A DNA stretch of 64,000 nt from a bacterium. GTDB taxonomy: Bacteria; UBA10199; 2-02-FULL-44-16; JAAZCA01. The notes beneath the pieces were generated by a model, which was not told the DNA's origin, did no database searches, and worked only from the letters and a program-made list of their open reading frames with translations. Positions 9,852 to 24,601 of this stretch are shown here, piece by piece (the first letter of the stretch is position 1; each line of letters starts with the position of its first letter). A program made the position numbers and the translations under genes. The stretch lies in NCBI GenBank assembly GCA_021810905.1, contig JAJZQH010000011.1:4358-68357 (forward strand), given 5' to 3'.

Positions 9852-9939
9852 CCTCCCCTTTGTAAGGGGAGGTTGGGAGAGGTAGACCATGGATGCACTC
9901 AAGATCTACCTCCCCTTTCCCCTCCTTACAAAGGAGGGG
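9852..9939. repeat. nested palindromic element: two inverted copies of a CCTCCCC...GGGGAGG hairpin flanking an imperfect central palindrome
   Basis: The first hairpin is cctcccctttgtaaggggagg (9852-9872). The second is cccctccttacaaaggagggg (9919-9939). Between them gaggtagacc...gatctacctc forms an imperfect palindrome. The element lies between the giant-protein stop at 9947 and the ompA-like start. Confidence 0.5.
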
Positions 9940-9946: not shown

Positions 9947-12900
9947 TTAACGCATCGGCTCCGGAATCAGCGTGCATCCGCCGCCACCGCCGCCGCCATC
10001 AAAGCCCGTGGGATTCGTATCGTCCAGGGGATTGTTGGGATCGGTTTCGCCCGGATCGACGCGGCCGTTCAGATTTTTGTCCTCCTGAGGATCGGTCAGG
10101 CCTCCGCCGTCCGTATCTGCCTTGGTCATGTTGGTGACCGTTGCCGGATCGCTGTCAAAGACGAGATTGCCCGCTGCATCGTCGGTACTCTTGATCGGGC
10201 CCTCGCCGTCAGGATCGTCTGCCGCGGCAGCCACACCAACCTCAAGCCCGTCATTGAGTCCGTCATTATCGCTGTCCGGATCGAGGGCATTGATGAACCC
10301 GTCTCCATCGGAATCCGCGAGAGCGGCCGTTTCCCTGCCATCGATCACGCCGTCGTCGTCGCTGTCGACATCATATGGATCAGTGCCTGCTTCGATCTCT
10401 ATGTCGTCCGAAAGCCCGTCGCCGTCGCTGTCCATGGCGGACTGGCTGAACGGAATGCCGCCGCTTGACGCCTCGTACGCACCAAGCTCCAGGGCCTCCA
10501 CGAGCCGGGAGAGCTCCGCCCGCACGGGCGCGATCTTCTCCGCATCGAGCACGACCAGTTTGTCAAACGCGTCGAGCGCCTTTGAAATCTTCTCATCGAA
10601 TCCCGCGCTGACCGCTCCATCCCATCCACTCAGGATATCCTGGAGCATAGCCTTTGCACCATCGCTCGCTGCCGCATCTGTTCTCAACCCGTCGATCAGC
10701 GCGCGGCAGTTCGCCCACTGATCGCTCCAGGTGGATGAAATTTCCTGTTTGAAACTGCTGGTCGTCGTGTCGGTAAGGCCGCCCAGCCACGAAGTAGTGA
10801 GAGTCAGAGGTAACTCGATCGTTTCGTCGTCCAAAGGCAGGCGCAGGAAATAGACAAATTTTTCTTCCTCATTCCGTATGAGCTCTGCGCTCCACGACGC
10901 GTTCGCCTGCGAAAGGTCTGCGCCAGCGGTCCCCACTAACGCGGCACGCGCGGGCACGGCAACCGATGCCGAGGCGTTTGCAGGCCGGTCACGCGTTGCG
11001 ACTTTTACTGCGAACGAGATCACTTCCCCCGGCGAAGGAGTCTCTTCAGCAGGAAGCAATCGACCGAAGAGTTCATCCCACGTTTCGCCCCAGCTCTTTA
11101 CCTCGGACGAGCCAGCGGCCGCGGTCGCATAGGCCGAATCCCAGCCATTCATGGGAAGACCGACGAGCAGCGCCGAGCCCTTGCCGAATGTTTTTTTTGC
11201 GACAACCGTCGAATCATCAGCGCTAAATAGCGGCTCGACGTTTCCGTCAAAGGAGAACAGCGGAGACAGAGTCAGAGTCGGCAATTCACTCGCATCGCCG
11301 GCGGCTCTCACCAGGCGCGTGGCGCCACCCTGCGGAACCGCATTGACGCCGCCGAGATTGCTCCACAACTTGTCCCACGCGACCCCCGTAACGCTCACGG
11401 CGCTCTGCAGCAACATCAGGGAGTCGCCGTTGTAGATGCGCGCGGCAAGTTCGCGCATCAAACCGTCCACGAATTCAGTGCCGTCAAAATGATACCCGCT
11501 TCCGGCGCTCGCGAATGCGAAGACGTTGAAGGCGTCGCTCCGCATGGCGTTCAGGAATTCCTGCTGATCCGCGACTACCTTGAATGGCCAACCGCGTTCC
11601 GCGCAGAGCGATTGAATGGAGCGCACGTCATCGAGATCGGCCGGCACAATTTCGGGCCGTGAGGCGTCCGCCAGCGCGAGCATGAGGATGCGCGGCGCCT
11701 GCGAGAGGGTCATACTGCTATCGAGGACGAGAAGATCGAGCAGCTGTTTGTGTTCGGGCTCGGGGTGCCCCAGCAGATCCGTGCTTCGGTAGAATACGGA
11801 ATGCTCTCCAGCAGCGAGATTTCGAAGCGCGAACGGAATCGAATACGGTTGCCACGCGCCGGCGTCTATTCTGTATTCGGTCGACTTGAGGCCCACGATG
11901 TCGTCATGTGCGTTGAGGCGGATTTGCGTGGATGGAGTTGCGAGTTGTTCCTCGCCCGCAACCTCCTGACTCTTCTCGATCGTGGTGACCGGCGGGCTGT
12001 TGTCGACCGTGAGCGGATAAGCAAGCTCGCGGCGGTTCTCAAAATCGTCCACCGCGAAATAGCGGATGAGATGATTGCCCTCTTCATCAATATTGAACTG
12101 CGGGAGCGAAAGTTCCGCCGTACCGCCGGACGTGGCCGTCACGGGCGCACCGGAATCTAGGCGATATTCCAGATAGACGATGTCGTCGGCTCCGCTTGTC
12201 GCCTTGATTCGGATAGGCGTCGTGTGATCGACGAAGAGAGTTGCCGCGTTGCGATATTGCGGCAGTCCGACATCCAACGTGACATTCGGCGGACTGCCGT
12301 GCAGCACGAAGTTCACATCGCGCTTGTCTTCCGCGTTCGCAACGCGATCCACGGACCAGTATCTGCCGGTGTGTTCTCCGTCGCCGATGTCGCCGAGAGA
12401 AAATGAGTTCAACGCATGATACGTGATCGAAGGACTCGTAACCTGAAAGTTCGCATCCGCAACGCCTGCGCCCTGATCCGCCGCTGTCATCTTGAGGAAC
12501 GTCGCAGAGCCGGACCAGTGCGCCTTGCCGTCGATCGTGCGCTGCACGCCCTGGATATCGAGCTGGCTCGAGGGCGGATCGAGGTCCACGGATACCGCTT
12601 TCTGCCGCGCATCTTCCGTGTTGCCCACCGAATCGACGGCCCTGTGTGAGACGGAATGGGCGCCCGCGGCCGCTATGCCGAACGGAGCTGCAAAGCGCTG
12701 CCAGTCCGCGCCGTCGAGCTGATAATCTATGTGGTCCACGTCGCTCGCCATGTCCGAAGCCGAAAGCGCTATCTTCGTCACGCCGCTTATCCAGCTCACG
12801 CCGCCGGCATCGTCGTACGACGGACCGACGAAGCTGAGCCTGGATGCAGGAGGCCTGCGATCCAGGATGAGTTCACCACTCTGCGGGGCCGAGGAATTGC

Positions 12901-15900
12901 CCGCCGAGTCCGTTACCACGATTGTATAATGATACCGGCCGTCGAATGCCCTCGCGTCCGAGAGATTGGCGCCGTTCCATGCGAGCTGACGCTCGACCGG
13001 CGGAAGTGAGGCGACCTGCGATACGGAGGCTATGAGCGCCTGACCTGCAAACACGGAGAGCTGGGCCGCGACGTCCTGCATCGCGACGTTATCATCGACT
13101 CGATAACCGATCTTCGCCTCGCCGTTCTGTGCAAGCACCCCGGTCACGGCGACGGATGGCGCCGCGGTATCCACTATGACCATACCCTCAAACGGCGCGG
13201 CCGCTGCGCCACGCGCATCTGCGATCACGAGTCGCCATGCGTGTTCTCCATCGGTGACGAGCTGGCCGCCGGACTTGCCGTCCCACGAGATCGCCAACTC
13301 CCCCGCAGGCAATTCCTGCGATTGCACGAGCGCTCCATCGACGATGAGCTCCGCACGAACGCGCTCGCCGAAAGCTCCGCTGACCTTGACGCGCCATGCA
13401 GTCTCATCCTTGACGCCGTCGCCGTTCGGAGAGAACGAGGAAGGACTCGAGAGAAGCGCAACCGCGGGCGCTGCCGCGTCAAAGCGCAGATGCATATGCT
13501 GTGGCGATTCGGCGTTGCCGACCCTGTCGATCGCCCTAACCTCGAGTTCGGCGATTCCGGCGCCGGAATCATTCACCGCGAACGGACCGCCATAGGGCAT
13601 CCACGTACCGCCGTCCACGGAATATTCAATCCGGTCGAGCCCTGCGGGCATGAGGCCGCCGTCCTCAGCAGCGCAGCTGAACCGTGTATCTGCGGCGACA
13701 TATTCGTCGTCGCCCGATTTTTCATGGCTGCCGGAGATCGCGATGTTCGTCGTCGGAGGAGTTCGATCGAAGACCACGGGCTCGCTGTGCACGGATTCCG
13801 TGAGACCGTAATAATCGATGCCGAAGAATTCGATTTCGTAGACCCCTTCCTCAAAACCTTCGAGCGTAAACGGTGCGTTGAAGAGTTGATAATCCTTGTC
13901 GTTCACCCGATAGCGCATCTGGTAGACCGGCGCCGAGCCGTCGGCAGGCACGATGTTGAGAGGAGTTGCCGGGCCGATCCACTGCTGATGCCCGTCCGTA
14001 TAATGTGGATCGTCGATATCAAAGCGCGTGACGATTCCTGCGCCCTGGCCTGGCTGGTTCGGATCGATGATCGTAATAAACACCGTCTGCTCGGGCTCTT
14101 CATTGCCCTGGTCGTCCTTTGCAGAGCATGAGAAAGAATGTCGGCCTGGCGGCATCTGCGCGAGATCGATCAGCCCCTGGTATGGCTGATACTGTTCCTC
14201 ATCCCAGCGATAGCGGATCTCCGTGACGACGCTGCCGCGATCCGCCGCGTCTTCCGCTATGAGCATGATCTGGCTCGCGGGCGGAACGACCGCAAGCGAG
14301 CCGGGTTCCACGAGCTGCTCGTTCACCACGACTTGAGTCACGGGCGCCCGGCTGTCGACATAGACGCGCACAGACGCGCTCGCCTCTTTGCCGCTCTGCG
14401 TTCTGGCGTTCGCCTCGATCTGATACCAGCCTTGAGTTGCGCCTGGCGTCCACTCGACGTCGAACGGCGAGGTCGTTGATGACGATATCGCCTGCGCACT
14501 CCCGCCTTCTGGCGCCGCGGTGACGGAGAGGCTCTCGATCCCATCCGAAGGATCGACGCCGCCGAGCGAACCGGTGATATGCACGACGCCGCGCACCACG
14601 CTGTCCGCGGCCGGCGCGTCAATCGTCAGTCGCGGATAACCGTCATCTTCGCGCATGATCAGATAGCGCGAGAAGTGATTGAGCATGCCGGAGATACGGA
14701 AGATATCGTCCGACGATCCGGGCGTGCCGCGATCGTCCCACGTGTTGATCGTCGCAAGCTGCTCGAGCTCACCATCGTCTTTAAGATTGTAGATCGCCAT
14801 CACGGGAGGATCGTTCGCAGTGATGCCATAAACGCGATCCTTCACCTCCTGCGGATCATTTGCATAGAGCGCCTCTACTTCATCCCGCGTAAAATAGACT
14901 TCCAGCTGTGGCTGATACGTCGGATTCAACGCGATATCGTCCGGCTTGATCTCGACGATCGGCCCTATCGGATTGATGCCCGAAGGGAGATAGAGGCCCG
15001 GAGTGTCGGTCGGTATTGGAATCACGGTCACGAGTTCGTTGATGGAAGAATCGCATGGGAATGGACCGTTCGCTGGGCACAGGCTGTATTCGTCGAAATA
15101 GATTGAATAACGCCGCCAAGGTGAACTCACCACGGCAGGCGCATTGGCCTTAACGAGCGAACCGATGGAGACGTTCATCGTGTCCTCGCTCTTCAAAGCC
15201 CCGTTCGCGTCGGTCGCGCGCAGCATTACCGTATATTCGTGCCCGTTCAAGCGAGAGACGTCCCACCACGCGAGAGTATTGTTTTGCGCGCCCTGCCCTT
15301 CAGCTATCCTCTGCCAGGAATTCGTCTTCGGTTCAAAATAGCGAAGCTCCCACGCTTCGCCGCCCACCGCCCCCCTGATCTCGATGAAGCGCTTCGGAGC
15401 GGCATCCGGCTTGAGCTTCAATTTGAATGAGTCGTTCACGTTCTTATTGCTCTCGGAAACGCCGTCGCCGTCCACGTCGCTCGTTCCATTCGAATTGACG
15501 AGCATATCCGTGAGCATGAAGGAATCGTTCACGCTTCCATCGGGATAGCGAAGATCGATGGTCCACTCGTTCACGTGTGCAACGTCCGAGAACGTGTAGA
15601 GCGTGGGCGAATCTTTCACGGGTTGATTATACCTGGGATGCCCCGCATAGAGCGAAAATGGCCCGCTGATCGTCTTGAACGGCGCCTGAGTATCTTCCTC
15701 TATTCCCCGCGAGAGGCACCGCCGGGATTGATTGTCGACCGCGGTATTCAAACCTCCATTGATATACTTCGCTCCGTTGAAGATGCAGGCGGACGATGCC
15801 AGATATGGATCTGCATTCGTCGTAAAACCGTCGGGAATGAGATCAGCGTAGAGCTTCGGTGAAAGATATTGCCGCTCATCTATAGGACCATTCGCGTCGC

Positions 15901-18900
15901 CGAGCCAAGCGCGAACCGCGTTTCCCACGGCGATGGTTCCGTATGAAGCGGTTTGAGTCCAGGCGACACCGTTGATGCTCGGAGTGAACGTGAGACCGTA
16001 GGAAGAGACCACACTGGACACGATGTACGACTGGCCGCTCGACGTTGCGCCGTTGTATTCCGCCACCAGGACCGGATCTGTGACTGAATCGATAATCGAA
16101 TTGCCGCCGATGACATACGGTCCCCATGGCTGCGAAAGGAGCCTGCTAGCGTTCGCACGGATACGCACGCTGCCGCAGGTTACAGGTGCAACGACATTTC
16201 CATAGTTCCACTCGTACCACGAGCCGCAGATGGTGATCGGCCCGTTAGGGCAGAACGTGGGGAAGAGGGTGTTTTCAGGAGTGTGTTCATATCCGTACGA
16301 ATGACAGAGCGACAGATCCTGGCCGTGAGAACAATTGTTCACGAGAAAAGTCTGGTCAGCTGCCGAAATGCCGTTATGCCCGCTCGGCCTCCCCACCAGC
16401 CCTACGCCGATGCTCAAGCTGTCGGAGGCAGCGGCCGGCTGCTCGGCGATGTCGAAAGGGGCCGTCACTGACCTCTCACCCAGAGGCGTCCTCAAAAGCA
16501 TCGTGACATTGTCTGGGACATTGACGCTGGAAATCCTGTAAGAAGTCACCGTGTATCCGCTGTCGAAGAAGAGATTCGATACTGGGACGTAATCCGGCAT
16601 AAGACGGAAATCCTGCGTCCGGCACCCATATCCGTCGCCGAGATCTTCAATCGTATTGAGCGGTACATTCTCGGGCGTGACGACGGTTTCCAAAGGCATA
16701 TTCTGCTCGATCAATTCCGTGCCCCTGGCGCTGATTTCGTACGTGAAGGGAACGCGGATCGTTCCGCTTCCATACGCACGCCATTTGAAATCCGACGAAC
16801 CGTTGAGCGGAAAATCGTTCAGGGGATCGTCGTCGTCTCGAAGCGTTCCGGCGATTACATCAGGATCGGTGCTGCTCTCGTCGCCTTCGCCGACGAGCAT
16901 GGTGACGTCCGCATAGAGCCCGCCTCCCCCTATCGAGAGGGCGCGCACCGCAACGCTTTCGTTCTTTTCAACCACATCCGTGCATCCGGCATCTATGCAC
17001 TGGGCCTTGATCTTCACGGTATACGTCTTGCCGGACGGCACCACCACGCCCTGATCGCTGGCGCCGTTCCACGACACCGCGCCGATCTTGTCCACGTTCC
17101 CGTCGATCAGGGTGCGCACGAGCGCGCCGTCTTCGTCATAGACACCGACGTTCAATTTCGCGTAGCGGTTGAGGTTGTAGGACGCCGTGAGCGTTTCCGC
17201 CTGTACGTCATTTCCGTTGGCGTCGGTTATCATGTTGAACGGATCGAACACGTCCGACGAGAGCGCGAAACCCAGGATCGCAAGACCTGCGTTGTATTCG
17301 GTGGCGACGGTCATGTGAATGTCCGAGGTCGTCTTCGTGTCTCCGCCCGTCCCGTCCACCGCGGTGGCGGTCACGCGAGCGCGATAATCGCCCACGTCGA
17401 CGCGCTTGTTGACGTTGTCCTTGCCGTTCCACGCAAAGGAGTACGATCCCGGCGCGGTCGCTCCCATGGAGAACGACGCGGCCACGGGGCCTATCTGCCC
17501 GCCCGCCACCTTGTAAATCGTGACATTGACGTTCGAGGTCTCGTTGGCGAGTGCGTACGAAATGACCGACTCCGGAGACTGAGTAGAGATATTCGCCGGC
17601 GAGGCGTTCACGTTCGAGAGTTTCGGCCCGATGTTCTCCGGATCGTTCGGGTCCGTGGAAGGATCGTTCGGATCGTACGGCGTTCCCTGCGCCACGCTGC
17701 GCAGATCCACCACGAGCGAATCGAAATTCACGCGCCCCACGGCATTACCGTTTCCGTCGACGACCTTGAGCAGGATCGTATAGAGCCCGTTCGGGGTCCG
17801 CGCTGAATCGGTCGTATCCCATCGCGCGAGCAGACCGTGCTGCACCGGACGCACCGAGACGTTTGACGCGGGATAGACGGCGTCAGCCGGCTCGTTCGCG
17901 CTGTTGATGGGCGATTGATGCTGCAGCGGCACAGGTACGGTGAGCCACGGCGATCCTGCCTCGCCGGCGGCAAGCGCCGTTGCTTCATCCACCTTCCAGA
18001 TGCCGGGGCGATAGTAAACCTTGTACGCGAGGAAATCGAAGTTGTCGTTTCCCTCGCCGATATTCGGATCGGTTGCGATACCTTCGATCCCCGTCACTCC
18101 GTAGACGACGGGATAAGCGCCGTCGTCGCGATTCGGGTCGGTCGGGAGATCGATCTGGGCGCGCACGCCAAAGACGATGAGCGGCGTAGTCGCGCGGGAT
18201 GCCAGACCCAGGTCGTTCATCGCGGTGATGCGCAGGAAGTACAACCCCTTCGCCAGCGGCTCGTCGTCATTCCTCGTGACCGTGCCGTGGGTATTGACTC
18301 CATCAGCACGCACCGAATTTGCGCCAGCGGACTGATGCGCATTCTCGACAACGCGGAAGAGCTCGTTGCCCGCAGCGTCGAGAAGGTCCACCGTGACGAC
18401 GGCATCCGTGGAGAGGATATACGAGAGCATGGCATCATCATTATATCCGTCCGCGTTCGGGGTAATCACCTTCGGTTGGGCAACGACTTCGTCTATCTGC
18501 GTTATCGGCATCTCCATCTCTGCTAGGATGCGATCGTAGACGTGCACGTTCTCGCCGAGCGTGAGCTCTGCAAAGCGCTCGCGCGATGTCTTGTATACCG
18601 AAGACGAGTCCCAGCCGGAGATCGACGAAATCAAGCCTTCGTAGAGATCGAAGGCCACGACTCCCGCGTCGAGCGACGATTCGGCCTCATAGGGGAGATG
18701 CCAGTCCCAGCGCCGTACGGACGTTCCATCGCGATGCACCGAATATACAGTTCGATCCGCGAGCAACACGACGATCTCAGGTTCCATGTCCAGATCGATA
18801 TCAGCGATGAGCGGGCGCGCAGCCGGCACGGCGGGAAGCGGGAAACGCGCGACGACGTCGCCGTTGCGATCGAAGGCGAGGAGTTCGGGCGCTGACGTTC

Positions 18901-19627
18901 CGACCACGAGCTCGGGTTTCTCGTCGGCGTTCACGTCGATTGAGGCTGCACCGCCCTTGAAAGTCTGGGCGTTGAGAGATGCAAAGGCATGGTGCGATCC
19001 GTCCGCTTCCCACTCTACGATCTCGCCGCCGGCCTGATCCACGGCGTAGAGAGAGGACCTCCCGTCATTGTCCAGATCCGCCGCAGCGAGCCACGGCGCC
19101 GCGTTAAAATCCGCGTCATATGCGTCGAGCTTGGTGAATCCCGCGGCGTGACGAAAGACAAAGACCTTGCCGGACGTCGTTGTGAAGACCAGCTCAAGCC
19201 TGTTGTCTCCATTGATGTCGGAGATGATCGGCATAGCGGCGATGGAACCCACGCCCTGCGGGAATGCGAAACGCCACGTCGTGAGCTCCGTGCCGTCGCC
19301 GCGCAGCACGCGCATCTGTTCGGCGCCGCCCGCTGACGCGAGCACGAGGACGATCTCGAGCTTTGCGTCGCGATTCACGTCCACCAACCGCGTCATGGGC
19401 CGCGCCTTGAGGCCCTCATCAAGAAAATTTACGACCGGCCAGCCGGAGATGGCCTCGCCCTTTCGATCCCACGCATAGACCCGTCCGTCCCGCGAGACGC
19501 TAACGCGCTCGATGGCGTAAGAGTCATCGATATTGCCGGCGGAGATGCGGGCATGGGCATAGCCGGCGGCAGCGCACAGGGCCGCTATCAAAAAAGATAC
19601 GCCGGCGATTTTAGTTCTCACGTTCAT
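9947..19627 (-). CDS. giant secreted surface protein (about 3,226 aa): N-terminal FG-GAP beta-propeller repeats, many Ig/Fn3-like beta-sandwich repeats, C-terminal thrombospondin type-3 Ca-binding repeats
   Basis: The signal peptide is MNVRTKIAGVSFLIAALCAAAGYAHA, from the ATG at 19627. The ORF track starts at a GTG at 19642 that overlaps the upstream stop. FG-GAP-like units include DINGDNRLELVF, DLDNDGRSSLYAV, DVNADEKPELVV and DIDLDMEPEIVV. Several roughly 100-aa units share Y-x-x-DGG-x-W-x-Y...G-x-H-x-V-x-YRS-x-D-x-x-GN-E. The C-terminus DSDGDGLSDD...DSDDDGVIDG...DSDGDGFINALDPDSDNDGLNDG is TSP3-like. The protein ends GGGGGGGCTLIPEPMR. Confidence 0.8.
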   Translation of the reverse strand: MNVRTKIAGVSFLIAALCAAAGYAHARISAGNIDDSYAIERVSVSRDGRVYAWDRKGEAISGWPVVNFLDEGLKARPMTRLVDVNRDAKLEIVLVLASAGGAEQMRVLRGDGTELTTWRFAFPQGVGSIAAMPIISDINGDNRLELVFTTTSGKVFVFRHAAGFTKLDAYDADFNAAPWLAAADLDNDGRSSLYAVDQAGGEIVEWEADGSHHAFASLNAQTFKGGAASIDVNADEKPELVVGTSAPELLAFDRNGDVVARFPLPAVPAARPLIADIDLDMEPEIVVLLADRTVYSVHRDGTSVRRWDWHLPYEAESSLDAGVVAFDLYEGLISSISGWDSSSVYKTSRERFAELTLGENVHVYDRILAEMEMPITQIDEVVAQPKVITPNADGYNDDAMLSYILSTDAVVTVDLLDAAGNELFRVVENAHQSAGANSVRADGVNTHGTVTRNDDEPLAKGLYFLRITAMNDLGLASRATTPLIVFGVRAQIDLPTDPNRDDGAYPVVYGVTGIEGIATDPNIGEGNDNFDFLAYKVYYRPGIWKVDEATALAAGEAGSPWLTVPVPLQHQSPINSANEPADAVYPASNVSVRPVQHGLLARWDTTDSARTPNGLYTILLKVVDGNGNAVGRVNFDSLVVDLRSVAQGTPYDPNDPSTDPNDPENIGPKLSNVNASPANISTQSPESVISYALANETSNVNVTIYKVAGGQIGPVAASFSMGATAPGSYSFAWNGKDNVNKRVDVGDYRARVTATAVDGTGGDTKTTSDIHMTVATEYNAGLAILGFALSSDVFDPFNMITDANGNDVQAETLTASYNLNRYAKLNVGVYDEDGALVRTLIDGNVDKIGAVSWNGASDQGVVVPSGKTYTVKIKAQCIDAGCTDVVEKNESVAVRALSIGGGGLYADVTMLVGEGDESSTDPDVIAGTLRDDDDPLNDFPLNGSSDFKWRAYGSGTIRVPFTYEISARGTELIEQNMPLETVVTPENVPLNTIEDLGDGYGCRTQDFRLMPDYVPVSNLFFDSGYTVTSYRISSVNVPDNVTMLLRTPLGERSVTAPFDIAEQPAAASDSLSIGVGLVGRPSGHNGISAADQTFLVNNCSHGQDLSLCHSYGYEHTPENTLFPTFCPNGPITICGSWYEWNYGNVVAPVTCGSVRIRANASRLLSQPWGPYVIGGNSIIDSVTDPVLVAEYNGATSSGQSYIVSSVVSSYGLTFTPSINGVAWTQTASYGTIAVGNAVRAWLGDANGPIDERQYLSPKLYADLIPDGFTTNADPYLASSACIFNGAKYINGGLNTAVDNQSRRCLSRGIEEDTQAPFKTISGPFSLYAGHPRYNQPVKDSPTLYTFSDVAHVNEWTIDLRYPDGSVNDSFMLTDMLVNSNGTSDVDGDGVSESNKNVNDSFKLKLKPDAAPKRFIEIRGAVGGEAWELRYFEPKTNSWQRIAEGQGAQNNTLAWWDVSRLNGHEYTVMLRATDANGALKSEDTMNVSIGSLVKANAPAVVSSPWRRYSIYFDEYSLCPANGPFPCDSSINELVTVIPIPTDTPGLYLPSGINPIGPIVEIKPDDIALNPTYQPQLEVYFTRDEVEALYANDPQEVKDRVYGITANDPPVMAIYNLKDDGELEQLATINTWDDRGTPGSSDDIFRISGMLNHFSRYLIMREDDGYPRLTIDAPAADSVVRGVVHITGSLGGVDPSDGIESLSVTAAPEGGSAQAISSSTTSPFDVEWTPGATQGWYQIEANARTQSGKEASASVRVYVDSRAPVTQVVVNEQLVEPGSLAVVPPASQIMLIAEDAADRGSVVTEIRYRWDEEQYQPYQGLIDLAQMPPGRHSFSCSAKDDQGNEEPEQTVFITIIDPNQPGQGAGIVTRFDIDDPHYTDGHQQWIGPATPLNIVPADGSAPVYQMRYRVNDKDYQLFNAPFTLEGFEEGVYEIEFFGIDYYGLTESVHSEPVVFDRTPPTTNIAISGSHEKSGDDEYVAADTRFSCAAEDGGLMPAGLDRIEYSVDGGTWMPYGGPFAVNDSGAGIAELEVRAIDRVGNAESPQHMHLRFDAAAPAVALLSSPSSFSPNGDGVKDETAWRVKVSGAFGERVRAELIVDGALVQSQELPAGELAISWDGKSGGQLVTDGEHAWRLVIADARGAAAAPFEGMVIVDTAAPSVAVTGVLAQNGEAKIGYRVDDNVAMQDVAAQLSVFAGQALIASVSQVASLPPVERQLAWNGANLSDARAFDGRYHYTIVVTDSAGNSSAPQSGELILDRRPPASRLSFVGPSYDDAGGVSWISGVTKIALSASDMASDVDHIDYQLDGADWQRFAAPFGIAAAGAHSVSHRAVDSVGNTEDARQKAVSVDLDPPSSQLDIQGVQRTIDGKAHWSGSATFLKMTAADQGAGVADANFQVTSPSITYHALNSFSLGDIGDGEHTGRYWSVDRVANAEDKRDVNFVLHGSPPNVTLDVGLPQYRNAATLFVDHTTPIRIKATSGADDIVYLEYRLDSGAPVTATSGGTAELSLPQFNIDEEGNHLIRYFAVDDFENRRELAYPLTVDNSPPVTTIEKSQEVAGEEQLATPSTQIRLNAHDDIVGLKSTEYRIDAGAWQPYSIPFALRNLAAGEHSVFYRSTDLLGHPEPEHKQLLDLLVLDSSMTLSQAPRILMLALADASRPEIVPADLDDVRSIQSLCAERGWPFKVVADQQEFLNAMRSDAFNVFAFASAGSGYHFDGTEFVDGLMRELAARIYNGDSLMLLQSAVSVTGVAWDKLWSNLGGVNAVPQGGATRLVRAAGDASELPTLTLSPLFSFDGNVEPLFSADDSTVVAKKTFGKGSALLVGLPMNGWDSAYATAAAGSSEVKSWGETWDELFGRLLPAEETPSPGEVISFAVKVATRDRPANASASVAVPARAALVGTAGADLSQANASWSAELIRNEEEKFVYFLRLPLDDETIELPLTLTTSWLGGLTDTTTSSFKQEISSTWSDQWANCRALIDGLRTDAAASDGAKAMLQDILSGWDGAVSAGFDEKISKALDAFDKLVVLDAEKIAPVRAELSRLVEALELGAYEASSGGIPFSQSAMDSDGDGLSDDIEIEAGTDPYDVDSDDDGVIDGRETAALADSDGDGFINALDPDSDNDGLNDGLEVGVAAAADDPDGEGPIKSTDDAAGNLVFDSDPATVTNMTKADTDGGGLTDPQEDKNLNGRVDPGETDPNNPLDDTNPTGFDGGGGGGGCTLIPEPMR
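9950..10430 (-). other. thrombospondin type-3-like DxDxDG calcium-binding repeat region at the C-terminus of the giant protein
   Basis: Tandem D-x-D-x-D-G-x-x-D motifs are present. The antisense ORF 10122..10721 shows the mirrored SPS/LSL low complexity. Confidence 0.6.
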
Positions 19628-19638
19628 GAGTCGCTCGT

Positions 19639-22600
19639 TCACTGCGCTTCGAGATACGCGTTGATCAAACTCATATCGACCTGCCGGATCTTTTCGTTCC
19701 AGATAACCGTCAGATAGCGGTCGTCGCCGGAGATAATGACTGACGTCGGATCCTCCGATCCATTCTCATCATCATCATCTTTACAAGATGAATAGGGGAT
19801 CTCATCCTGTTGTTCCCCGCCAAAATACACACCTATATTGCAGTAATGCAGCACATAGTATCGCTCTGCACGTGAAGAAGGATAGGCTTGAAAATCCTTG
19901 AGCTGGCTGATATTCGACAGATCCAGGGCATAGACTCGATTCTCTACCCATATCTCATCACGCACAAGATGCGGCAAAATTGACCAATAACTGCTTACCC
20001 AATCTTCAGCCAATTTCGAAATCGAGCCGTTATCTTCAAACCGATAGACAGCAAGCTCGCCACCTTTTGCAGCTACAGCGATCCGTCGATCGGCACGGAA
20101 AGCCATGACCGGATGTCTTTCTGATGAGTAATAAAAATCCAATCCGCATGAACAATCGACGGACATATCCGAACGATCGAGAACGCAGACGTCGGACGAT
20201 TCCTTCCAAATCATAAGGACCTTCTGTCCTGGGCCGCTGGCGAGATCGGCCACCGTATCCACGTTCGGATGCGTGGTCTGACCCTGCAGCGTGCCATCTG
20301 GCGCCACCACTGTAATAACGTTGCCCTTTGCCGTGATAACAGTCCCATCCGGCGCGACGTCAAACGTGTCCGCTGCGGTTGGAAGCGGCTTCGGCGTAAT
20401 AAAATCCTTGCCGCTTATGGAATAGATCTGGAGCTCAATTCCCGGCTTGAAGAGCATGTAGACGTGATCCGTCACTGGATCATGAACCACCTTGAGCAGA
20501 TCGGCCTCTGAATAAGGAAGCGATGTGATCCATACATCCGGCATGTCGTCAAAAAGAAAAGTTGGGTTCCATCCCGACTGAAGCGAATAAATCCCCTCAA
20601 TCTCTATCGTGCTGTTCTTACAGTAAGCAGAAATCGTCACTTCAATTTCGTTTTCCGACTTAAATTCCACTGGAAGATTGTAACCATAGCACCCGGCAAA
20701 ATGTGCTTCCGTATCTTCAGTGAAGTTAAACCCTCTTATCCGAACTTTGGTTCCTATATTGCCGTTTAACGGATCTGCATTCGTAACGAGCGCATTATCA
20801 CCTCCGCCTTCCGCAACTTGTCCGATCAATGGCGTTGACAAGAGCGATGCGTCCCCCTCACGATTCAACATCAGGCTTGTCCTGTCCAAGGGTCTCATCT
20901 CGGCGTCTTCGATCCGAAGTTGCACCTTGCCGCTGTCAATGATCGACGATTCGTCAATCGTCACCTTCCCGTCAGTCGATAACCATGCACCTGATGCATT
21001 GGCTATCGCTTCATCGATCGGCATTTGATTGAATACGCTGATATCCTTGGCGGTCAGCATAAGGAGTGTCGCTCGATCAGCGTCGTACGTGTAAAAATTG
21101 TCCGCGCTCATCTGAATAGTTTCATTTCGGAAAAAATGCTTCAGAGGGATAACAAGCAGCATGCTGGTCGTGTTCTCTGCATTCCACATCGAGACATACG
21201 CGATCATACGCTGAGCATCGATTTTGATATAGCTATCCGACATAGAAACATTCTGATCGAAATTCGCTTCCGTGGGAGCCGCTGATGAACCGCCGCAGCC
21301 TGAAACAAGACACAATAATCCGACGACGGCCATGGGCGCACACGAACGCCTGGAAATACCACGCATTGCCGCCACGATCATGAGCACGATCACTCCGAAG
21401 GCGAACGACGCGCCGGCGCCGTATCCTGATCCTCCAACAAGTGCGCATCCGCCGCTGCCGGACGATGGCGGTTCATCTGCCAGCTGCGGCAATGCCTGCG
21501 GCGAGAACGGAGTTTCAGCGACATCTTCATCGCTCACCGGCAGGGGCGTCTGAAGATCGGTCGCATCGAAATTGCTGAATATTTTTGCGACGTCGATGAT
21601 TCCATATCCCCAGCGGTTGTCTGGGAAGACATCAACCACCCTTGAGTTGCGCGCAATGAGCGTCTCTATCTGCGATGTTGTGAGATCTGGCTTACGCTGG
21701 AGCATCAAGGCAATCGCTCCGGCAACGTGCGGCGATGCCATACTCGTGCCGGCCATCGCAACGAACCTCCGATCATTGTCAACGGCATAACCGGATCCGA
21801 CGAGCGAATTGATTGCATCGTAAGAAAGCGCGGAAATGATCATCTCGCCTGGAGCGGTGATTTCAGGCTTTTGCCCGGTGCGTGAGGAATCGCCAGATGG
21901 CCCTGGGCTGCTGAACGGCGAGAGAGAGTCTACGGGAGTAAAATCGCCTGAGATGCCGACGTCTCGCATGAGCGGCCATAAATCATCGCGTGTCGCAAAC
22001 GACGCCACGGAGATGACCTGCTGAGCTGTGGCGGGAATACCCACGGTGCGCCTGCTGTCGCCCGGACAATAACGATGACCTGACGACAGATAAACGCCGT
22101 CACGTTTAGTAAAATACGAGCCATATGCGGCCCACGCATCAAACGCGCCGCTTCCTGATGCGATCAGATCGAATGAATAATTATCGATGGATATATCGTT
22201 GCCTTCTGATGCTTCAATATAGAGGACTGTATGCTTTCTGCCGTTCTCGGGGTTCACGGTCTCCGTAGATTCAACCACGACATGGAGCCGTCCATCGTCC
22301 ATTTCGGAATCATAAATACTTCCTTCGGCTACGATACCGGTCTCTTCGTACGATCCATATTTATCCACGCCCAGACCAAACGTGAGCGCCGCGCCTTCAC
22401 GCTGCCATATATCGATCAACGCGTAGCTGCCGCCTGAGGACAAACCAAGGAACTCGAACCTGCATTCGTCCCCCTGCAGCTGCGTGGATGCGTGCACGCT
22501 CGCGATGACATCATCGCTATTACGGTTGTAGTTGCCGGCTGATGCGACTATGGCCCGGCCTGGAGCCTCGCTTATCTTCGCATCGAGCGCCTGCTCCAGC

Positions 22601-23487
22601 AACGACGTGCCGTCGTGCGCGCCATATTGCGTTCCGAGACTCATGTTGATCACGACCGGTTTGCCAGCCTGCGACGCCTTTCTCATTATATAATCGACGG
22701 CATCCACCAGGCTCGTAGAGAACGCACCCGACAATTCGCTCGCTATCTTGACAACAATCAGCTCGGCGCCTGGCGCCATGCCTTCGTATTGTTTGTCACG
22801 ACCGGCTGCGATCCCCGCCACATGAGTACCATGCCCGACTTCGTCCTTCGATGGACACGTCTTCTCCTCGATATCCTTGCGGAAACACTCGATGCCGTAG
22901 GTGCCCTCAATCTCCGAGGGTGCCGCGAATCCCTCTGCGGTCTCTATACCCTGATCCCATATTGAGATAATGCGTGAATTGCCGTCTGCGTCGTTGAACA
23001 CGGAATGGCGCCAGTCGATTCCCGTGTCGATGATCCCTATGATCACCCCCGTTCCATCATACGCAACTCCGTCGACCTGCCCGGCCTTCACCGCGGTCGC
23101 ACCTATAGCCGGGAGGCTCTTGTCGAGCATGGGCGCGAGCTGTTTGTCGGCCTCCGCGTATTCGATCTCACCGGATTTTGCCATCTGCTCCAGGAGCTCA
23201 ATAGATATCGTAACGGATGCGATCTCCTTGGCCACAACGCGAGCGTTGCCGCCGGAGGCATTGACGGCAGCGACTACGGCTTCAACATCACGAGCTTTCA
23301 CGAGGGCGCTGACGAAGCCATCGCGCGCGCCACTTGCCGCTTCTTTTCCGCTCCCCGCCAAATGCCGCTGCTGGCCAAGATACAAGACCGGGTCGATTGA
23401 GTTAGAGGCGCAGACCGAGAAAGATGCGGTCAACATCGCCACAGCGAGCACAATGCCGGATGTAAGCCTGTAGAGAGATGATTTCAT
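19639..23487 (-). CDS. S8 subtilisin-like peptidase (signal peptide, catalytic D/H/S). In the same frame it continues through an internal GC + TM + RRS sorting-signal-like segment and a second lipoprotein-like module with an IPT/TIG-like domain
   Basis: The catalytic triad motifs are IGIIDTGIDWRH (Asp), HGTHVAGIAAG (His) and GTSMASPHVAGAIALM (Ser). The signal peptide MKSSLYRLTSGIVLAVAMLTASFSVCASN starts at the ATG at 23487, whereas the ORF track starts at 23559. Residues 743-1306 begin with MAVVGLLCLVSGCGG (lipobox) and contain NGNIGTKVRIRGFNFTEDTEAHFAGCYGYNLPVEF (IPT/TIG-like). The stop overlaps the start of the giant protein gene. Confidence 0.8.
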   Translation of the reverse strand: MKSSLYRLTSGIVLAVAMLTASFSVCASNSIDPVLYLGQQRHLAGSGKEAASGARDGFVSALVKARDVEAVVAAVNASGGNARVVAKEIASVTISIELLEQMAKSGEIEYAEADKQLAPMLDKSLPAIGATAVKAGQVDGVAYDGTGVIIGIIDTGIDWRHSVFNDADGNSRIISIWDQGIETAEGFAAPSEIEGTYGIECFRKDIEEKTCPSKDEVGHGTHVAGIAAGRDKQYEGMAPGAELIVVKIASELSGAFSTSLVDAVDYIMRKASQAGKPVVINMSLGTQYGAHDGTSLLEQALDAKISEAPGRAIVASAGNYNRNSDDVIASVHASTQLQGDECRFEFLGLSSGGSYALIDIWQREGAALTFGLGVDKYGSYEETGIVAEGSIYDSEMDDGRLHVVVESTETVNPENGRKHTVLYIEASEGNDISIDNYSFDLIASGSGAFDAWAAYGSYFTKRDGVYLSSGHRYCPGDSRRTVGIPATAQQVISVASFATRDDLWPLMRDVGISGDFTPVDSLSPFSSPGPSGDSSRTGQKPEITAPGEMIISALSYDAINSLVGSGYAVDNDRRFVAMAGTSMASPHVAGAIALMLQRKPDLTTSQIETLIARNSRVVDVFPDNRWGYGIIDVAKIFSNFDATDLQTPLPVSDEDVAETPFSPQALPQLADEPPSSGSGGCALVGGSGYGAGASFAFGVIVLMIVAAMRGISRRSCAPMAVVGLLCLVSGCGGSSAAPTEANFDQNVSMSDSYIKIDAQRMIAYVSMWNAENTTSMLLVIPLKHFFRNETIQMSADNFYTYDADRATLLMLTAKDISVFNQMPIDEAIANASGAWLSTDGKVTIDESSIIDSGKVQLRIEDAEMRPLDRTSLMLNREGDASLLSTPLIGQVAEGGGDNALVTNADPLNGNIGTKVRIRGFNFTEDTEAHFAGCYGYNLPVEFKSENEIEVTISAYCKNSTIEIEGIYSLQSGWNPTFLFDDMPDVWITSLPYSEADLLKVVHDPVTDHVYMLFKPGIELQIYSISGKDFITPKPLPTAADTFDVAPDGTVITAKGNVITVVAPDGTLQGQTTHPNVDTVADLASGPGQKVLMIWKESSDVCVLDRSDMSVDCSCGLDFYYSSERHPVMAFRADRRIAVAAKGGELAVYRFEDNGSISKLAEDWVSSYWSILPHLVRDEIWVENRVYALDLSNISQLKDFQAYPSSRAERYYVLHYCNIGVYFGGEQQDEIPYSSCKDDDDENGSEDPTSVIISGDDRYLTVIWNEKIRQVDMSLINAYLEAQ
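21340..21459 (-). other. internal tripartite sorting-signal-like segment (Gly-rich GC motif, hydrophobic helix, RRS), followed at 21333 by an in-frame ATG and lipoprotein signal
   Basis: SGSGGCALVGGSGYGAGASFAFGVIVLMIVAAMRGISRRS resembles PEP-CTERM, MYXO-CTERM or GlyGly-CTERM C-terminal anchors, which are common on S8 peptidases. I hand-verified the codons ggt att tcc agg cgt tcg tgt gcg ccc ATG gcc gtc gtc gga tta ttg. Confidence 0.5.
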
Positions 23488-23542
23488 ATATCGTCCGTTC
23501 CGGGCATATATCATGAACCGCCCACATGGTATCCGTTCACAG

Positions 23543-24601
23543 CTATTTTTTGTTCTCACTCCCCTTCGGCTTCCACGTCGCCGCTGCCTTGTCGCCCAAT
23601 GTGGTCACGTAACTGAAGAACGGCTCCTTGAGTTCACCCTCCCCATAGAGACCTGCGTCCGGCATTTTGCAGTCCTTCATATTGTCCGCGATCGACTTCA
23701 TCCGATCGTCTATCCGCCGCGATCCTGACGAACGAATGATTTCAAATGAGACCTGCTCTCCTCGCTTGTTGTAATCGATTTTGGCCGTGACGTATTTTCC
23801 ACGGCTGTTGAGTTTTTTATTTTCCTGCTTTCCGAAACTGGCAGCCTCGCATTCTTCGAGAACGTTCATCGCCTCATAGAGTTTACTTGCCGAGGGTTTC
23901 TCTTCCTGCTTTCCGACATAAAAGTCATAGGTCTTTGCCTCAGGGTCGTCTTTCGACCTGTCATGCCCCTTGAGGGTCTCTGCGAATCCGACCTGACCAT
24001 CAAGAAGCAGGTGTGCCAACGCTCCCGCCGCGAGGTTTTTCTTTATGATCTTTACGCCCAGATCGACGCCGTCGAGATCCTTGATACGAATCTTTCGAAG
24101 TTTTTTGTCCCTGAGATCGAGATATACGATACCATAATAATCGGTGGCAGGTTCAAGTTGGCGAACATAGAATATCTCGTTCGTTCTTATCGGCCTGTGC
24201 AAAACCTGCCTGCCGTATTTAGCATCAAGTGCAGCGCTCATCCTGAGCCCGTCATTCTCGACGGTCTTGCCCGCGACAGAACCTGCAACGCGTTGTACGT
24301 GCGGATATACATGCACGGCATGCAGATTCCTGTCTCCATCAGATACGATGTCAACATGCTCCACTGAAACCGCATCGCTCCCTACGTTCCGAACCATCAC
24401 CCCAACCGGCAGAAAATGACGCCATTCTCGATACAGCTGAAATTTTTTGCGTTCCTCTTTGGCTGAATACGGATGAACGGAAACGATGGCGCCGACTTCC
24501 GGTAGTTCGACAACCGATTTCATGAAATCATCGGCAAACGATTGTTTTGTCATTGCAAACGCCACCATCATTCCGATCAACAACATGCTCAAGCGTTTCA
24601 T
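23543..24601 (-). CDS. secreted hypothetical protein with a C-terminal TonB-C-like domain
   Basis: The signal peptide is MKRLSMLLIGMMVAFAMTKQSFA. The C-terminus KYVTAKIDYNKRGEQVSFEIIRSSGSRRIDDRMKSIADNMKDCKMPDAG follows the TonB_C pattern (G.V.v.f.v...SSG...lD.aA...v). Confidence 0.4.
   Translation of the reverse strand: MKRLSMLLIGMMVAFAMTKQSFADDFMKSVVELPEVGAIVSVHPYSAKEERKKFQLYREWRHFLPVGVMVRNVGSDAVSVEHVDIVSDGDRNLHAVHVYPHVQRVAGSVAGKTVENDGLRMSAALDAKYGRQVLHRPIRTNEIFYVRQLEPATDYYGIVYLDLRDKKLRKIRIKDLDGVDLGVKIIKKNLAAGALAHLLLDGQVGFAETLKGHDRSKDDPEAKTYDFYVGKQEEKPSASKLYEAMNVLEECEAASFGKQENKKLNSRGKYVTAKIDYNKRGEQVSFEIIRSSGSRRIDDRMKSIADNMKDCKMPDAGLYGEGELKEPFFSYVTTLGDKAAATWKPKGSENKK

What the first reader, a model, noticed from the sequence alone, without database searches (positions are those of the whole stretch)
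19639..23559. S8 peptidase ORF reads through a C-terminal-anchor-like signal (GC + TM helix + RRS) and straight into a second lipoprotein signal peptide
At aa 701-739 the peptidase has SGSGGC followed by a 16-aa hydrophobic helix and RGISRRS. This layout matches exosortase/rhombosortase-type C-terminal sorting signals, which are common on subtilases. Only 3 codons later an in-frame ATG starts MAVVGLLCLVSGCGG (a lipobox) and about 560 aa more, including an IPT/TIG-like domain. The ORF is either a genuine fusion with an internal membrane anchor or two genes whose separating stop codon is missing. The partner giant protein also ends ...GGGGGGGC, as if with a truncated GC motif.
Basis: seen in the sequence. 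Interest (0 to 1): 0.6.

Follow-up and report, generated by a model that had tools for sequence, protein, structure and literature searches.

The report
Peptidase fused to lipoprotein via hairpin
This is one real, evolutionarily conserved gene in which a secreted subtilisin-type protease, still carrying its old C-terminal membrane-anchor signal, runs straight into a complete lipoprotein signal peptide and a 552-residue lipoprotein, so the two signals probably form a membrane hairpin at which the protein may be cut in two.

Summary
ORF 19639..23514/23559 (-) encodes an S8 peptidase, then SGSGGC, a 13-aa spacer, a 14-aa hydrophobic helix, RGISRRS, and three codons later MAVVGLLCLVSG-C plus 552 aa.

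It is not a lost stop codon. The gene is 100% identical in two assemblies. The same continuous ORF occurs in seven other lineages (33-63% aa identity), six loci with DNA. Both cysteines are invariant.

The in-frame ATG is incidental: three of eight fused forms have no Met in the loop. What is conserved is a [GS]4-C-x-L signature, a 9-15-aa spacer, TM1, a +3 to +5 loop, a 12-16-aa uncharged run and a lipobox.

Both halves exist separately. About 31-37 ~700-aa S8 relatives end with the same Cys/TM/Arg tail. Eight free C-module homologues start with their own lipoprotein signal peptide.

The C-module models as beta-sandwich + IPT + beta-propeller. A cassette of fusion, ~3000-aa giant and OmpA-like protein recurs.

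Best reading (inferred, untested): a Sec-inserted hairpin whose second arm is an internal signal-peptidase-II site, giving an anchored protease and a lipoprotein.

No curated sorting-signal model is met, and no sorting enzyme lies in the window. I found no published precedent.

The parts
19639..23514 (-). Whole fused gene (1291 aa from M16). Alternative starts are M25 at 23487 and GTG at 23559.
   Evidence: The exact 1291-aa product is called on contigs of two assemblies, which are 100% nt identical to the window.
23404..23487 (-). N-terminal Sec-type signal peptide MKSSLYRLTSGIVLAVAMLTASFSVCAS (aa 25-52).
   Evidence: Hydropathy peak at aa 31-52. Homologues start the same way and align from the conserved DP[YF] that follows.
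21568..23055 (-). Peptidase S8 catalytic region with a large insert. Catalytic motifs: IID178TG, GH243GTH, SAGN343, GTS606MASPHV.
   Evidence: Pfam PF00082, 155.9 bits against a cut-off of 21.8. Motif positions. Assignment of catalytic residues within the motifs is by analogy with subtilisin BPN' (own knowledge).
21436..21462 (-). Cys signature SGSGGC705-ALV (family consensus [GS]4-C-x-L-[AIV]).
   Evidence: The Cys is invariant in 8 fused proteins. The signature was counted in 46 sequences.
21406..21444 (-). Polar, Gly-rich spacer ALVGGSGYGAGAS between the signature Cys and TM1.
   Evidence: Spacer is 9-15 aa (median 12) in 39 family members.
21364..21405 (-). TM1 FAFGVIVLMIVAAM, the predicted stop-transfer helix (periplasm to cytoplasm).
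   Evidence: Highest hydropathy peak of the protein, KD15 = 2.6. Present in all fused and stand-alone relatives.
21334..21363 (-). Basic loop RGISRRSCAP. It serves both as the cytoplasmic Arg cluster of the anchor and as the n-region of the lipoprotein signal peptide.
   Evidence: Net charge is +3 to +5 in all eight fused homologues. Loop length varies from 3 (RRK in P0004) to about 11 aa.
21298..21333 (-). h-region and lipobox MAVVGLLCLVSG, the predicted second hairpin arm (cytoplasm to periplasm).
   Evidence: The uncharged run before the Cys is 12-16 aa and fits a lipobox pattern in 8 of 8 fused forms. It aligns with the N-terminal signal peptides of the free homologues.
21295..21297 (-). 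Lipobox Cys755, the predicted diacylglyceryl-modified +1 residue and signal-peptidase-II site (G754|C755).
   Evidence: Invariant in all 16 fused and free C-module homologues. Modification and cleavage are inferred, not shown.
19642..21297 (-). Mature C-module (552 aa): beta-sandwich (about 20809-21243), IPT/TIG (about 20548-20790) and beta-propeller (about 19675-20535).
   Evidence: AlphaFold2 mean pLDDT 85.3, pTM 0.76. Foldseek PDB hits include BT_3476, BACOVA_00264 and Lp49. Domain-to-window mapping.
9947..19642 (-). Giant partner protein (3231 aa from the GTG; 3226 aa as called in L001 and L002), overlapping the fusion gene by 4 nt at the GTG start. It has FG-GAP-like, FlgD_ig, Big_13 and TSP3 repeats and ends GGGGGGGC-TLIPEPMR (9950-9997) with no TM helix.
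   Evidence: The same gene order is seen in L003, L004, L005 and L092.
8532..9902 (-). OmpA-family protein with an N-terminal Phenol_MetA_deg-type barrel, the third gene of the cassette.
   Evidence: Pfam. Conserved position in L001, L002, L004, L005 and L092.
23543..24601 (-). Upstream secreted 352-aa protein with no known domain. It may be the first gene of the cassette.
   Evidence: 29% identical homologue in the same position in L005. No Pfam hit. Not conserved in L004.

Best explanation
The gene is a genuine, old fusion of two secreted proteins that also exist separately.

The two partners:
- An S8 peptidase that ends in a Cys-type tripartite C-terminal signal: [GS]4-C-x-L, a polar spacer, a TM helix and an Arg cluster.
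- A lipoprotein built of a beta-sandwich, an IPT domain and a beta-propeller.

In the fusion, the Arg cluster of the first signal doubles as the positively charged n-region of the second signal.

Proposed pathway (inferred):
1. The N-terminal signal peptide takes the protease domain across the inner membrane through Sec.
2. TM1 stops transfer.
3. The basic loop stays in the cytoplasm.
4. The lipoprotein h-region re-initiates translocation, forming a helical hairpin that places the lipobox at the outer face of the membrane.
5. Lgt then lipidates Cys755 and signal peptidase II cuts G754|C755.

One translation product would thus give, in 1:1 ratio and at one membrane site, a membrane-held S8 protease and a roughly 60-kDa lipoprotein. 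The protease may be processed further at its GGC signature.

Both products belong to a conserved cassette with a ~3000-aa repeat-rich surface protein and an OmpA-like protein, and presumably serve in its maturation or anchoring.

Shown: the fusion, its conservation, the separate existence of both halves, the signal-peptide-like properties of the junction and the synteny.
Inferred: the topology, the lipidation, the cleavage and the role in the cassette.
For: The continuous ORF is real.
- It is identical in two assemblies.
- It is conserved in P0001, P0003, P0004, P0123, P0126, P0129 and P0133, at 33-63% aa identity. The two homologues that can be aligned at the nucleotide level are only 66-70% identical, and two others cannot be aligned at all.
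- Both Cys residues are invariant.

The junction behaves like a lipoprotein signal peptide.
- 8 of 8 fused junctions fit a lipobox pattern.
- Each has an uncharged run of 12-16 aa, typical of signal-peptide h-regions and short for a TM helix, preceded by net +3 to +5.
- All eight free C-module homologues have an ordinary N-terminal lipoprotein signal peptide at the aligned position.

The first signal is ancestral to the S8 lineage.
- 37 of 119 listed S8 homologues, including all the closest stand-alone ones, end in a Cys...TM...basic tail.
- The signature and spacer length are the same as in the fused forms.

Internal initiation is not conserved.
- There is no Met in the loop of P0004, P0123 or P0129.
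- No ATG, GTG or TTG lies in the loop DNA of L005 or L092.

The hydropathy profile fits the proposed topology: exactly three hydrophobic segments.

The cassette recurs.
- Fusion, giant and OmpA-like gene appear in that order in L001, L002, L004, L005 and L092. In L003 the giant follows the fusion and runs off the end of the contig.
- One free C-module gene lies just upstream of an orthologous giant (L091), and another lies just downstream of an unrelated 3290-aa giant (L089).

NCBIfam NF058595, 'lipo-invert putative C-terminal anchoring domain', matches TM1, loop, h-region and lipobox in 6 of 8 junctions at 16-21 bits. This is below threshold, but the register is consistent.
Against: - No experiment or proteomic datum shows lipidation or cleavage.
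- Signal peptidase II acting on a signal peptide that is internal to a ~1300-aa chain has no published precedent that I could find.
- After cleavage the protease would keep an odd two-helix tail, unless a further unidentified enzyme acts on it.
- No sorting enzyme or polytopic protease is encoded in the window or in the related loci.
- The lipobox could persist for a reason other than cleavage.
- The lipobox regular expression was written from memory of PROSITE PS51257, not taken from the database.
Confidence: 0.6

Rival explanations
1. The fusion protein stays uncleaved. The two hydrophobic segments are simply a helical-hairpin anchor that holds a protease domain and a beta-propeller domain together on the periplasmic face of the inner membrane. 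The lipobox is then a relic of the fusion partner's past.
For: The topology and conservation data fit an uncleaved hairpin equally well. No precedent for internal signal-peptidase-II cleavage was found. A fusion that is cut again gains only stoichiometry and co-localisation.
Against: - A relic should decay. Instead the Cys is invariant, and the -3 to -1 positions stay lipobox-compatible in eight lineages down to 33% identity.
- The second arm keeps signal-peptide length (12-16 uncharged residues) rather than TM length.
- The residues after the Cys (GGSS) are conserved with the free lipoproteins.
Confidence: 0.22
2. These are two nested genes. The lipoprotein is made mainly by internal translation initiation at ATG 21333 (M743), and the long ORF yields the protease with a dispensable extension.
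For: An in-frame ATG sits exactly where a lipoprotein signal peptide would start in the window, in P0001 and in P0003. Most genes of this organism lack obvious Shine-Dalgarno sites, so the absence of one is weak evidence.
Against: - P0004, P0123 and P0129 have no Met between TM1 and the lipobox.
- The loop DNA of L005 and L092 has no ATG, GTG or TTG.
- From M743 the signal peptide would have no positively charged n-region at all. The basic residues lie upstream of the Met.
- There is no SD-like sequence at the right distance.
Confidence: 0.08
3. This is a sequencing or assembly artefact, or a recent loss of the stop codon between two adjacent genes.
For: None beyond the unusual layout. The two assemblies that agree could derive from the same or related samples.
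Against: - The same continuous frame occurs in seven other lineages from different studies (ENA, JGI, Logan, NCBI). These lineages are strongly diverged.
- No orthologous locus is split.
Confidence: 0.01

Closest known systems
MYXO-CTERM and JDVT-CTERM, the Cys-type tripartite C-terminal sorting signals processed by CPBP-family intramembrane proteases (myxosortase MrtX). Sources: Haft preprint 10.1101/2023.06.07.544157; Guo, Haft and Wall, PMC11980579.
   Same: A Gly/Ser-rich signature with an invariant Cys, then a TM helix, then an Arg-rich cytoplasmic cluster. The signal is frequent on secreted enzymes. One S8 relative (P0036) carries a tail that a source names MYXO-CTERM.
   Different: - No curated model reaches threshold on the window's tail or on the tails of most relatives.
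- A 9-15-aa polar spacer separates the Cys from the TM helix, whereas those signals abut the TM helix.
- A conserved Leu sits at +2.
- In the window the signal is internal, not C-terminal.
- No CPBP protease is nearby.
- The organism's taxonomy is unknown.
NCBIfam NF058595 'lipo-invert putative C-terminal anchoring domain'. Only the name and the profile matches are known to me; I found no paper.
   Same: The profile's positions 30-82 align with TM1, the basic loop, the h-region and the lipobox in 6 of 8 fused junctions. This suggests that curators have seen a TM helix followed by a lipoprotein-signal-like element at the end of other proteins.
   Different: - Scores are 16-21 bits against a cut-off of 37, so the window protein is not a member.
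- The profile is 113 positions long and is named a C-terminal domain. It would be followed by a short tail, not by a 552-aa folded lipoprotein that also exists as a free gene.
Bacterial lipoprotein precursors (Lgt / signal peptidase II / Lnt pathway).
   Same: A positive n-region, a short uncharged h-region, a lipobox with invariant Cys and a small, Gly/Ser-rich start to the mature part. The free homologues are ordinary lipoprotein precursors.
   Different: The signal peptide lies 740 residues into the chain and follows another TM helix. I found no described natural substrate of that kind.
Viral polyproteins with internal signal sequences, for example flavivirus prM-E-NS1 junctions (own knowledge, not tested here).
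   Same: The C-terminal anchor helix of one protein is followed by a second helix that acts as the signal sequence of the next protein. That second helix is cut by a signal peptidase on the far side of the membrane.
   Different: Those are eukaryotic-host signal peptidase I sites in viral polyproteins, with no lipidation. This is an analogy of mechanism only.
Ig/IPT + beta-propeller lipoproteins: Bacteroides BT_3476 and BACOVA_00264 ('auxiliary nutrient binding proteins') and leptospiral Lp49.
   Same: The fold combination of the C-module (Foldseek E 1e-12 to 1e-10). They are cell-envelope proteins; that Lp49 is a lipoprotein is from my own knowledge, not a tool result.
   Different: 8-12% sequence identity and TM-scores of 0.33-0.44, so the similarity is generic at fold level. 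No shared function can be inferred.
Mycosins (TIGR03921), S8 proteases of type VII secretion with a C-terminal TM anchor.
   Same: An S8 domain followed by a linker and a single TM anchor. The profile aligns through the TM helix (aa 556-734).
   Different: 91 bits against a cut-off of 278.75. There is no ESX context, and mycosins are not known for a Cys signature or a following lipoprotein.

Membership tests
Peptidase S8 (subtilase), PF00082 | Profile match above the gathering score | tested here: met
   155.9 bits against 21.8.
Peptidase S8 (subtilase), PF00082 | Asp, His, Ser catalytic motifs and the oxyanion Asn | tested here: met
   IID178TG, GH243GTH, SAGN343 and GTS606MASPHV are present. 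Residue assignment is by analogy with subtilisin (own knowledge).
Bacterial lipoprotein precursor (SPII signal peptide) | Positive n-region, uncharged h-region and a lipobox ending in Cys | tested here: met
   Net +3, a 16-aa uncharged run and LVSG-C. Also met in all 8 fused forms. The pattern was written from memory of PROSITE PS51257.
Bacterial lipoprotein precursor (SPII signal peptide) | Signal peptide at the N-terminus of the translated chain | tested here: not met
   The Cys is residue 755 (740 counted from M16). A conserved internal start is excluded by P0004, P0123 and P0129.
Bacterial lipoprotein precursor (SPII signal peptide) | S-diacylglyceryl modification and cleavage by signal peptidase II | not testable with these tools
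   Needs labelling, globomycin treatment or mass spectrometry.
MYXO-CTERM (TIGR03901 / TIGR03382 GC_trans_RRR) | Profile match above the cut-off | tested here: not met
   No hit at E<=10 for the window's tail or for six other fused tails. Only P0036 gives 14 and 11.9 bits, against cut-offs of 20 and 15.85.
MYXO-CTERM (TIGR03901 / TIGR03382 GC_trans_RRR) | Invariant Cys signature, TM helix and Arg-rich cluster | tested here: met
MYXO-CTERM (TIGR03901 / TIGR03382 GC_trans_RRR) | Signature abuts the TM helix, and the signal lies at the extreme C-terminus | tested here: not met
   The spacer is 9-15 aa, against the description. In the window 564 residues follow the signal.
MYXO-CTERM (TIGR03901 / TIGR03382 GC_trans_RRR) | Myxosortase (CPBP family) in the same genome; Myxococcota lineage | not testable with these tools
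   Only 64 kb of an unclassified MAG is available. There is no CPBP protease in the window.
JDVT-CTERM (NF033191) | Profile match above the cut-off | tested here: not met
   No hit for the window. P0126 gives 15.5 bits against 27.
JDVT-CTERM (NF033191) | Adjacent CPBP intramembrane protease gene | tested here: not met
   No such gene is next to the fusion in the window, L001, L004, L005 or L092.
GlyGly-CTERM / rhombosortase and PEP-CTERM / exosortase | Profile match; a GG or PEP signature abutting the TM helix | tested here: not met
   No NCBIfam hit at E<=10. There is no PEP motif in the S8 tail. The conserved residues are Cys and the Leu at +2, not GG alone.
NF058595 lipo-invert C-terminal anchoring domain | Profile match above the cut-off (37 bits) | tested here: not met
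   18.7 bits for the window junction and 16-21 bits in 6 of 8 homologues, all in the same register.
Mycosin (TIGR03921) | Profile match above the cut-off (278.75 bits) | tested here: not met
   91.2 bits.
IPT/TIG domain (PF01833) | Profile match above the gathering score | tested here: inconclusive
   13.9-15.2 bits against 20.9. However, the family profile hits hundreds of IPT-repeat proteins at positions 180-265, and the model has an Ig-like domain there.

The most novel reading that the evidence does not exclude
The hairpin is a double processing module.
- A still unidentified enzyme recognises the [GS]4-C-x-L signature. This signature forms an uncurated class of Cys-type sorting signal with a spacer. 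A short, TM-less version of it ends the giant partner protein.
- Signal peptidase II recognises the lipobox.

One precursor would then yield a protease anchored through a C-terminal Cys, a lipoprotein anchored through an N-terminal Cys, and a discarded two-helix peptide. That would make it a natural bacterial envelope polyprotein and the first natural substrate with an internal signal-peptidase-II site.
Probability: 0.2. Interest if true: 0.8.

Novelty: new variant of a known kind. Interest (0 to 1): 0.55.

Why it matters
If the internal lipobox is used, it would show that the lipoprotein pathway (Lgt and signal peptidase II) can act on a signal peptide buried in the middle of a chain. It would also show that bacteria build envelope polyproteins in the way some viruses do, delivering two partners to one membrane site in fixed ratio. 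This bears on how lipoprotein and sorting-signal predictors are written, because they look only at chain ends.

Separately, the [GS]4-C-x-L + spacer + TM + Arg tail is shared by dozens of S8 peptidases. Its short form is shared by ~3000-aa surface proteins. No curated model reaches its cut-off on the tails tested here, so it may mark an undescribed sorting system. The fusion gives a clean, testable handle on it, with two cysteines and two predicted cuts.

If the protein stays uncleaved, the finding is only an unusual anchor architecture.

Tried and rejected
- Exact look-ups with the GTG and M25 starts found nothing. M16 is the start on record.
- The genome-contig scan with the full fused alignment was swamped by generic S8 motifs (KPEITAPGE, GTSMAAPHV).
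- The metagenome-contig scan with C-module-specific motifs returned a single locus, the contig of an already known cluster member. The family is rare and no split orthologue was found.
- The word-indexed protein search with the C-module found only two relatives. The exhaustive profile search was needed to find the rest.
- NCBIfam scans of isolated tails and junctions gave no match above threshold.
- Source names gave only 'bacterium' for the organism.
- Pfam and hydropathy scans of the window's other genes found no CPBP protease, exosortase, rhombosortase or other polytopic protease.
- Four literature searches for internal lipoboxes, internal SPII sites, 'lipo-invert' or sorting-signal/lipoprotein fusions found nothing relevant.
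- Shine-Dalgarno inspection does not discriminate, because most genes here lack an obvious site.
- I considered and rejected a PEP-CTERM reading of the giant's ...IPEPMR. The PEP is not conserved in L004, L005 or L092.
- I ran no further search on taxonomy, and I did not model the hairpin itself, because neither would separate the competing explanations.


Full report
**1. The observation**

The minus-strand ORF 19639..23559 is 1306 codons from a GTG. Gene callers start it at M16 (23514). That exact 1291-aa product is on record on contigs of two assemblies, ENA ERZ27237050 (143.5 kb, L001) and Logan SRR13189623 (L002). Both are 100% identical to the window at the nucleotide level.

In GTG numbering the junction reads as follows:
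- SGSGGC, aa 700-705
- ALVGGSGYGAGAS, aa 706-718
- FAFGVIVLMIVAAM, aa 719-732
- RGISRRS, aa 733-739, then CAP
- M743-AVVGLLCLVSG-C755-GGSS

A hydropathy scan finds only three hydrophobic segments in the whole protein: the N-terminal signal peptide, TM1 and the second short segment. Pfam sees Peptidase_S8 and a sub-threshold TIG domain. The subtilase catalytic motifs are intact. The giant downstream protein ends GGGGGGGCTLIPEPMR, not in GC itself.

**2. Not a missing stop**

A word-indexed search with the C-terminal 564 aa found two relatives:
- P0001 is 58% identical and fused to an S8 domain. Its ORF runs off the 5' end of its contig.
- P0002 is 44% identical. It is a free 589-aa protein with its own lipoprotein signal peptide, in an unrelated neighbourhood.

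A search with the N-terminal part found P0003 (62% identical, 1267 aa) and P0004 (46% identical, 986 aa), both fused. An exhaustive profile search of 1.84 billion representatives added the following:
- Fused forms: P0123, P0126, P0129 and P0133.
- Free forms: P0124, P0125, P0127, P0135, P0145, P0160 and P0138.

All eight fused forms have the same junction: [GS]-rich signature with Cys, spacer, TM1, basic loop, short uncharged segment, then Cys-G-[GS]-S. Both cysteines are invariant columns.

Nucleotide identity of the window gene to L003 and L004 is 66-70%. L005 and L092 cannot be aligned to it at the DNA level. The P0003 type has been recovered in ENA, NCBI/Logan and JGI data. A sequencing error or a recent stop loss is excluded.

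**3. The ATG is incidental; the hairpin is the conserved thing**

P0004 (FRRK-FLGVLILTVFLCS-C), P0123 (RWFRRRYR-LGIQLAIIIIATSVSA-C) and P0129 (RCFGKRGVAGR-AGLLLCGVFLVVG-C) have no Met in the loop. The DNA of L005 and L092 has no ATG, GTG or TTG in the loop.

In the window, starting at M743 would leave the signal peptide without any positive n-region, and there is no Shine-Dalgarno-like sequence.

In all eight fused forms the Cys is preceded by 12-16 uncharged residues that fit a lipobox pattern. Those residues are preceded by a net charge of +3 to +5. These are the proportions of a lipoprotein signal peptide whose n-region is the Arg cluster of the preceding anchor.

**4. Both halves are autonomous modules**

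The closest stand-alone S8 relatives (about 700 aa, 35-38% identity) end in a Cys...TM...basic tail. This is true of 37 of the 119 listed homologues.

Counted over 46 sequences, the signature is [GS]4-C-x-L-[AIV]. In 39 of them with a TM helix, it is followed by a polar spacer of 9-15 residues (median 12), a TM helix and a basic cluster. The fused forms fall within the same range. Two such stand-alone S8 genes lie in a housekeeping neighbourhood (SerRS, DsbA-like, MFS, S8, then GlnA downstream in L007), not next to giants.

The free C-modules all begin with ordinary lipoprotein signal peptides that align with the internal one.

The C-module models confidently (pLDDT 85.3, pTM 0.76) as beta-sandwich + IPT + beta-propeller. 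It resembles BT_3476 / BACOVA_00264 and the leptospiral lipoprotein Lp49 at fold level only.

**5. Context**

The order fusion, ~3000-3230-aa giant, OmpA-like protein recurs in L001, L002, L004, L005 and L092. In L003 the giant follows the fusion and runs off the end of the contig. The giant carries FG-GAP-like, FlgD_ig, Big_13 and TSP3 repeats. The OmpA-like protein has a Phenol_MetA_deg-type barrel.

A free C-module gene (P0125, L091) also sits just upstream of an orthologue of the giant (38% identity). Another (P0127, L089) sits just downstream of a different 3290-aa giant. The C-module is therefore linked to giant surface proteins, and the protease is an addition.

The giants of four cassettes end with the same signature followed by only 4-16 residues and no TM helix:
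- GGC-TLIPEPMR
- GGC-SLIPEHKR
- GGC-QLIR
- GGC-TLIQPGAYKKRGPHE

Three S8 homologues end the same way.

**6. Mechanism**

The best-supported reading is a Sec-inserted helical hairpin:
1. TM1 stops transfer.
2. The basic loop stays in the cytoplasm, following the positive-inside rule.
3. The second segment re-initiates export and presents the lipobox to Lgt and signal peptidase II.
4. These enzymes release the C-module as a lipoprotein and leave the protease held by the hairpin.

By analogy with MYXO-CTERM, whose Cys-dependent cleavage by the CPBP protease MrtX has been shown (PMC11980579; preprint 10.1101/2023.06.07.544157), the protease may be processed a second time at its GGC signature.

All of this is inference. 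What is shown is architecture, conservation and modularity.

The rivals:
- An uncleaved hairpin anchor. This is plausible, but it does not explain the strict upkeep of the lipobox.
- Internal initiation. This is contradicted by three lineages.
- An artefact. This is excluded.

**7. Comparison with known families**

The window's tail, and the tails of most relatives, reach no curated NCBIfam sorting-signal model. JDVT-CTERM gives 15.5 bits against a cut-off of 27 in one homologue. MYXO-CTERM models respond only to the more distant P0036.

The spacer between the Cys and the TM helix also departs from the described Cys-type signals, which abut the helix.

NF058595, 'lipo-invert putative C-terminal anchoring domain', aligns with TM1, loop, h-region and lipobox in 6 of 8 junctions. 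The scores are 16-21 bits against a cut-off of 37. It is a conceptual neighbour, not a family assignment.

No sorting enzyme is encoded in the window or the related loci. The organism is an unclassified MAG.

Four literature searches found no description of an internal signal-peptidase-II site or of such a fusion. This was a limited word search, not proof of absence.

**8. Verdict**

This is a real and conserved but rare architecture, with eight fused clusters among 1.84 billion representatives. It is a new variant built from known parts.

Interest is moderate to high for protein-sorting specialists, for two reasons. It predicts a natural internal lipoprotein-processing site. It also exposes a Cys-type tail class, with a short form on giant partners, on which none of the curated models tested here reaches its cut-off. 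Everything beyond architecture awaits experiment.

Noticed in passing
window 9950-9997 (-); L004 about 14850-14903; L005 about 12570-12606; L092 about 13380-13457: The giant proteins of four cassettes all end in the S8 tail's signature, followed by only 4-16 residues and no TM helix: GGC-TLIPEPMR, GGC-SLIPEHKR, GGC-QLIR and GGC-TLIQPGAYKKRGPHE. Three S8 homologues (P0039, P0049, P0066) end the same way. It is a conserved short form of the signal, and its function is unknown.
   Followed up: partly
window about 9845-9946: The gap between the giant and the OmpA-like gene holds a long G/C-rich palindromic structure. Its perfect self-complementary unit, CCCCTCCTTTGTAAGGAGGGG, lies at 9919-9939 and is single-copy in the window. 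A similar element is at the same place in L004. It may be a terminator or attenuator. The TTG start listed for the OmpA ORF (9902) lies inside it.
   Followed up: partly
window 1-2748 (-): A second S8 peptidase runs off the left end of the window. It has an N-terminal lipoprotein signal peptide (LFLYAG-C-GGS), then an S8 domain, then FG-GAP repeats.
   Followed up: partly
window 24957-44817 (-): Directly upstream of the cassette lies a cluster of RHS/YD-repeat polymorphic-toxin genes. It holds proteins of 3373 aa and 2156 aa, the latter with a C-terminal YkuD L,D-transpeptidase domain. It also holds two shorter RHS C-terminal cassettes with small genes between them, presumably immunity genes. 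A similar giant-plus-small-genes arrangement precedes the free C-module in L091.
   Followed up: partly
L006 and L007 (P0011, P0014): Stand-alone S8 peptidases with the full Cys/spacer/TM/Arg tail sit in a conserved housekeeping neighbourhood: SerRS, DsbA-like, MFS, S8, with GlnA downstream in L007. P0011 was assembled from the same run (SRR13189623) as the window's strain.
   Followed up: no
L005 628-3588 (P0004): This fused homologue is only 986 aa. It has the hairpin, the beta-sandwich and the IPT domain but stops before the beta-propeller, so the propeller is dispensable in at least one lineage.
   Followed up: no
window 46965-47633 (+): An IS200-like Y1 transposase gene is one of the few plus-strand genes. 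It lies between a Ser/Thr kinase gene and unannotated ORFs.
   Followed up: no
window 23543-24601 (-): The upstream 352-aa secreted protein has no known domain. Its stop lies 29 nt upstream of the likely M16 start of the fusion gene, overlapping only the alternative GTG start (by 17 nt). A 29%-identical homologue occupies the same position in L005 but not in L004.
   Followed up: partly
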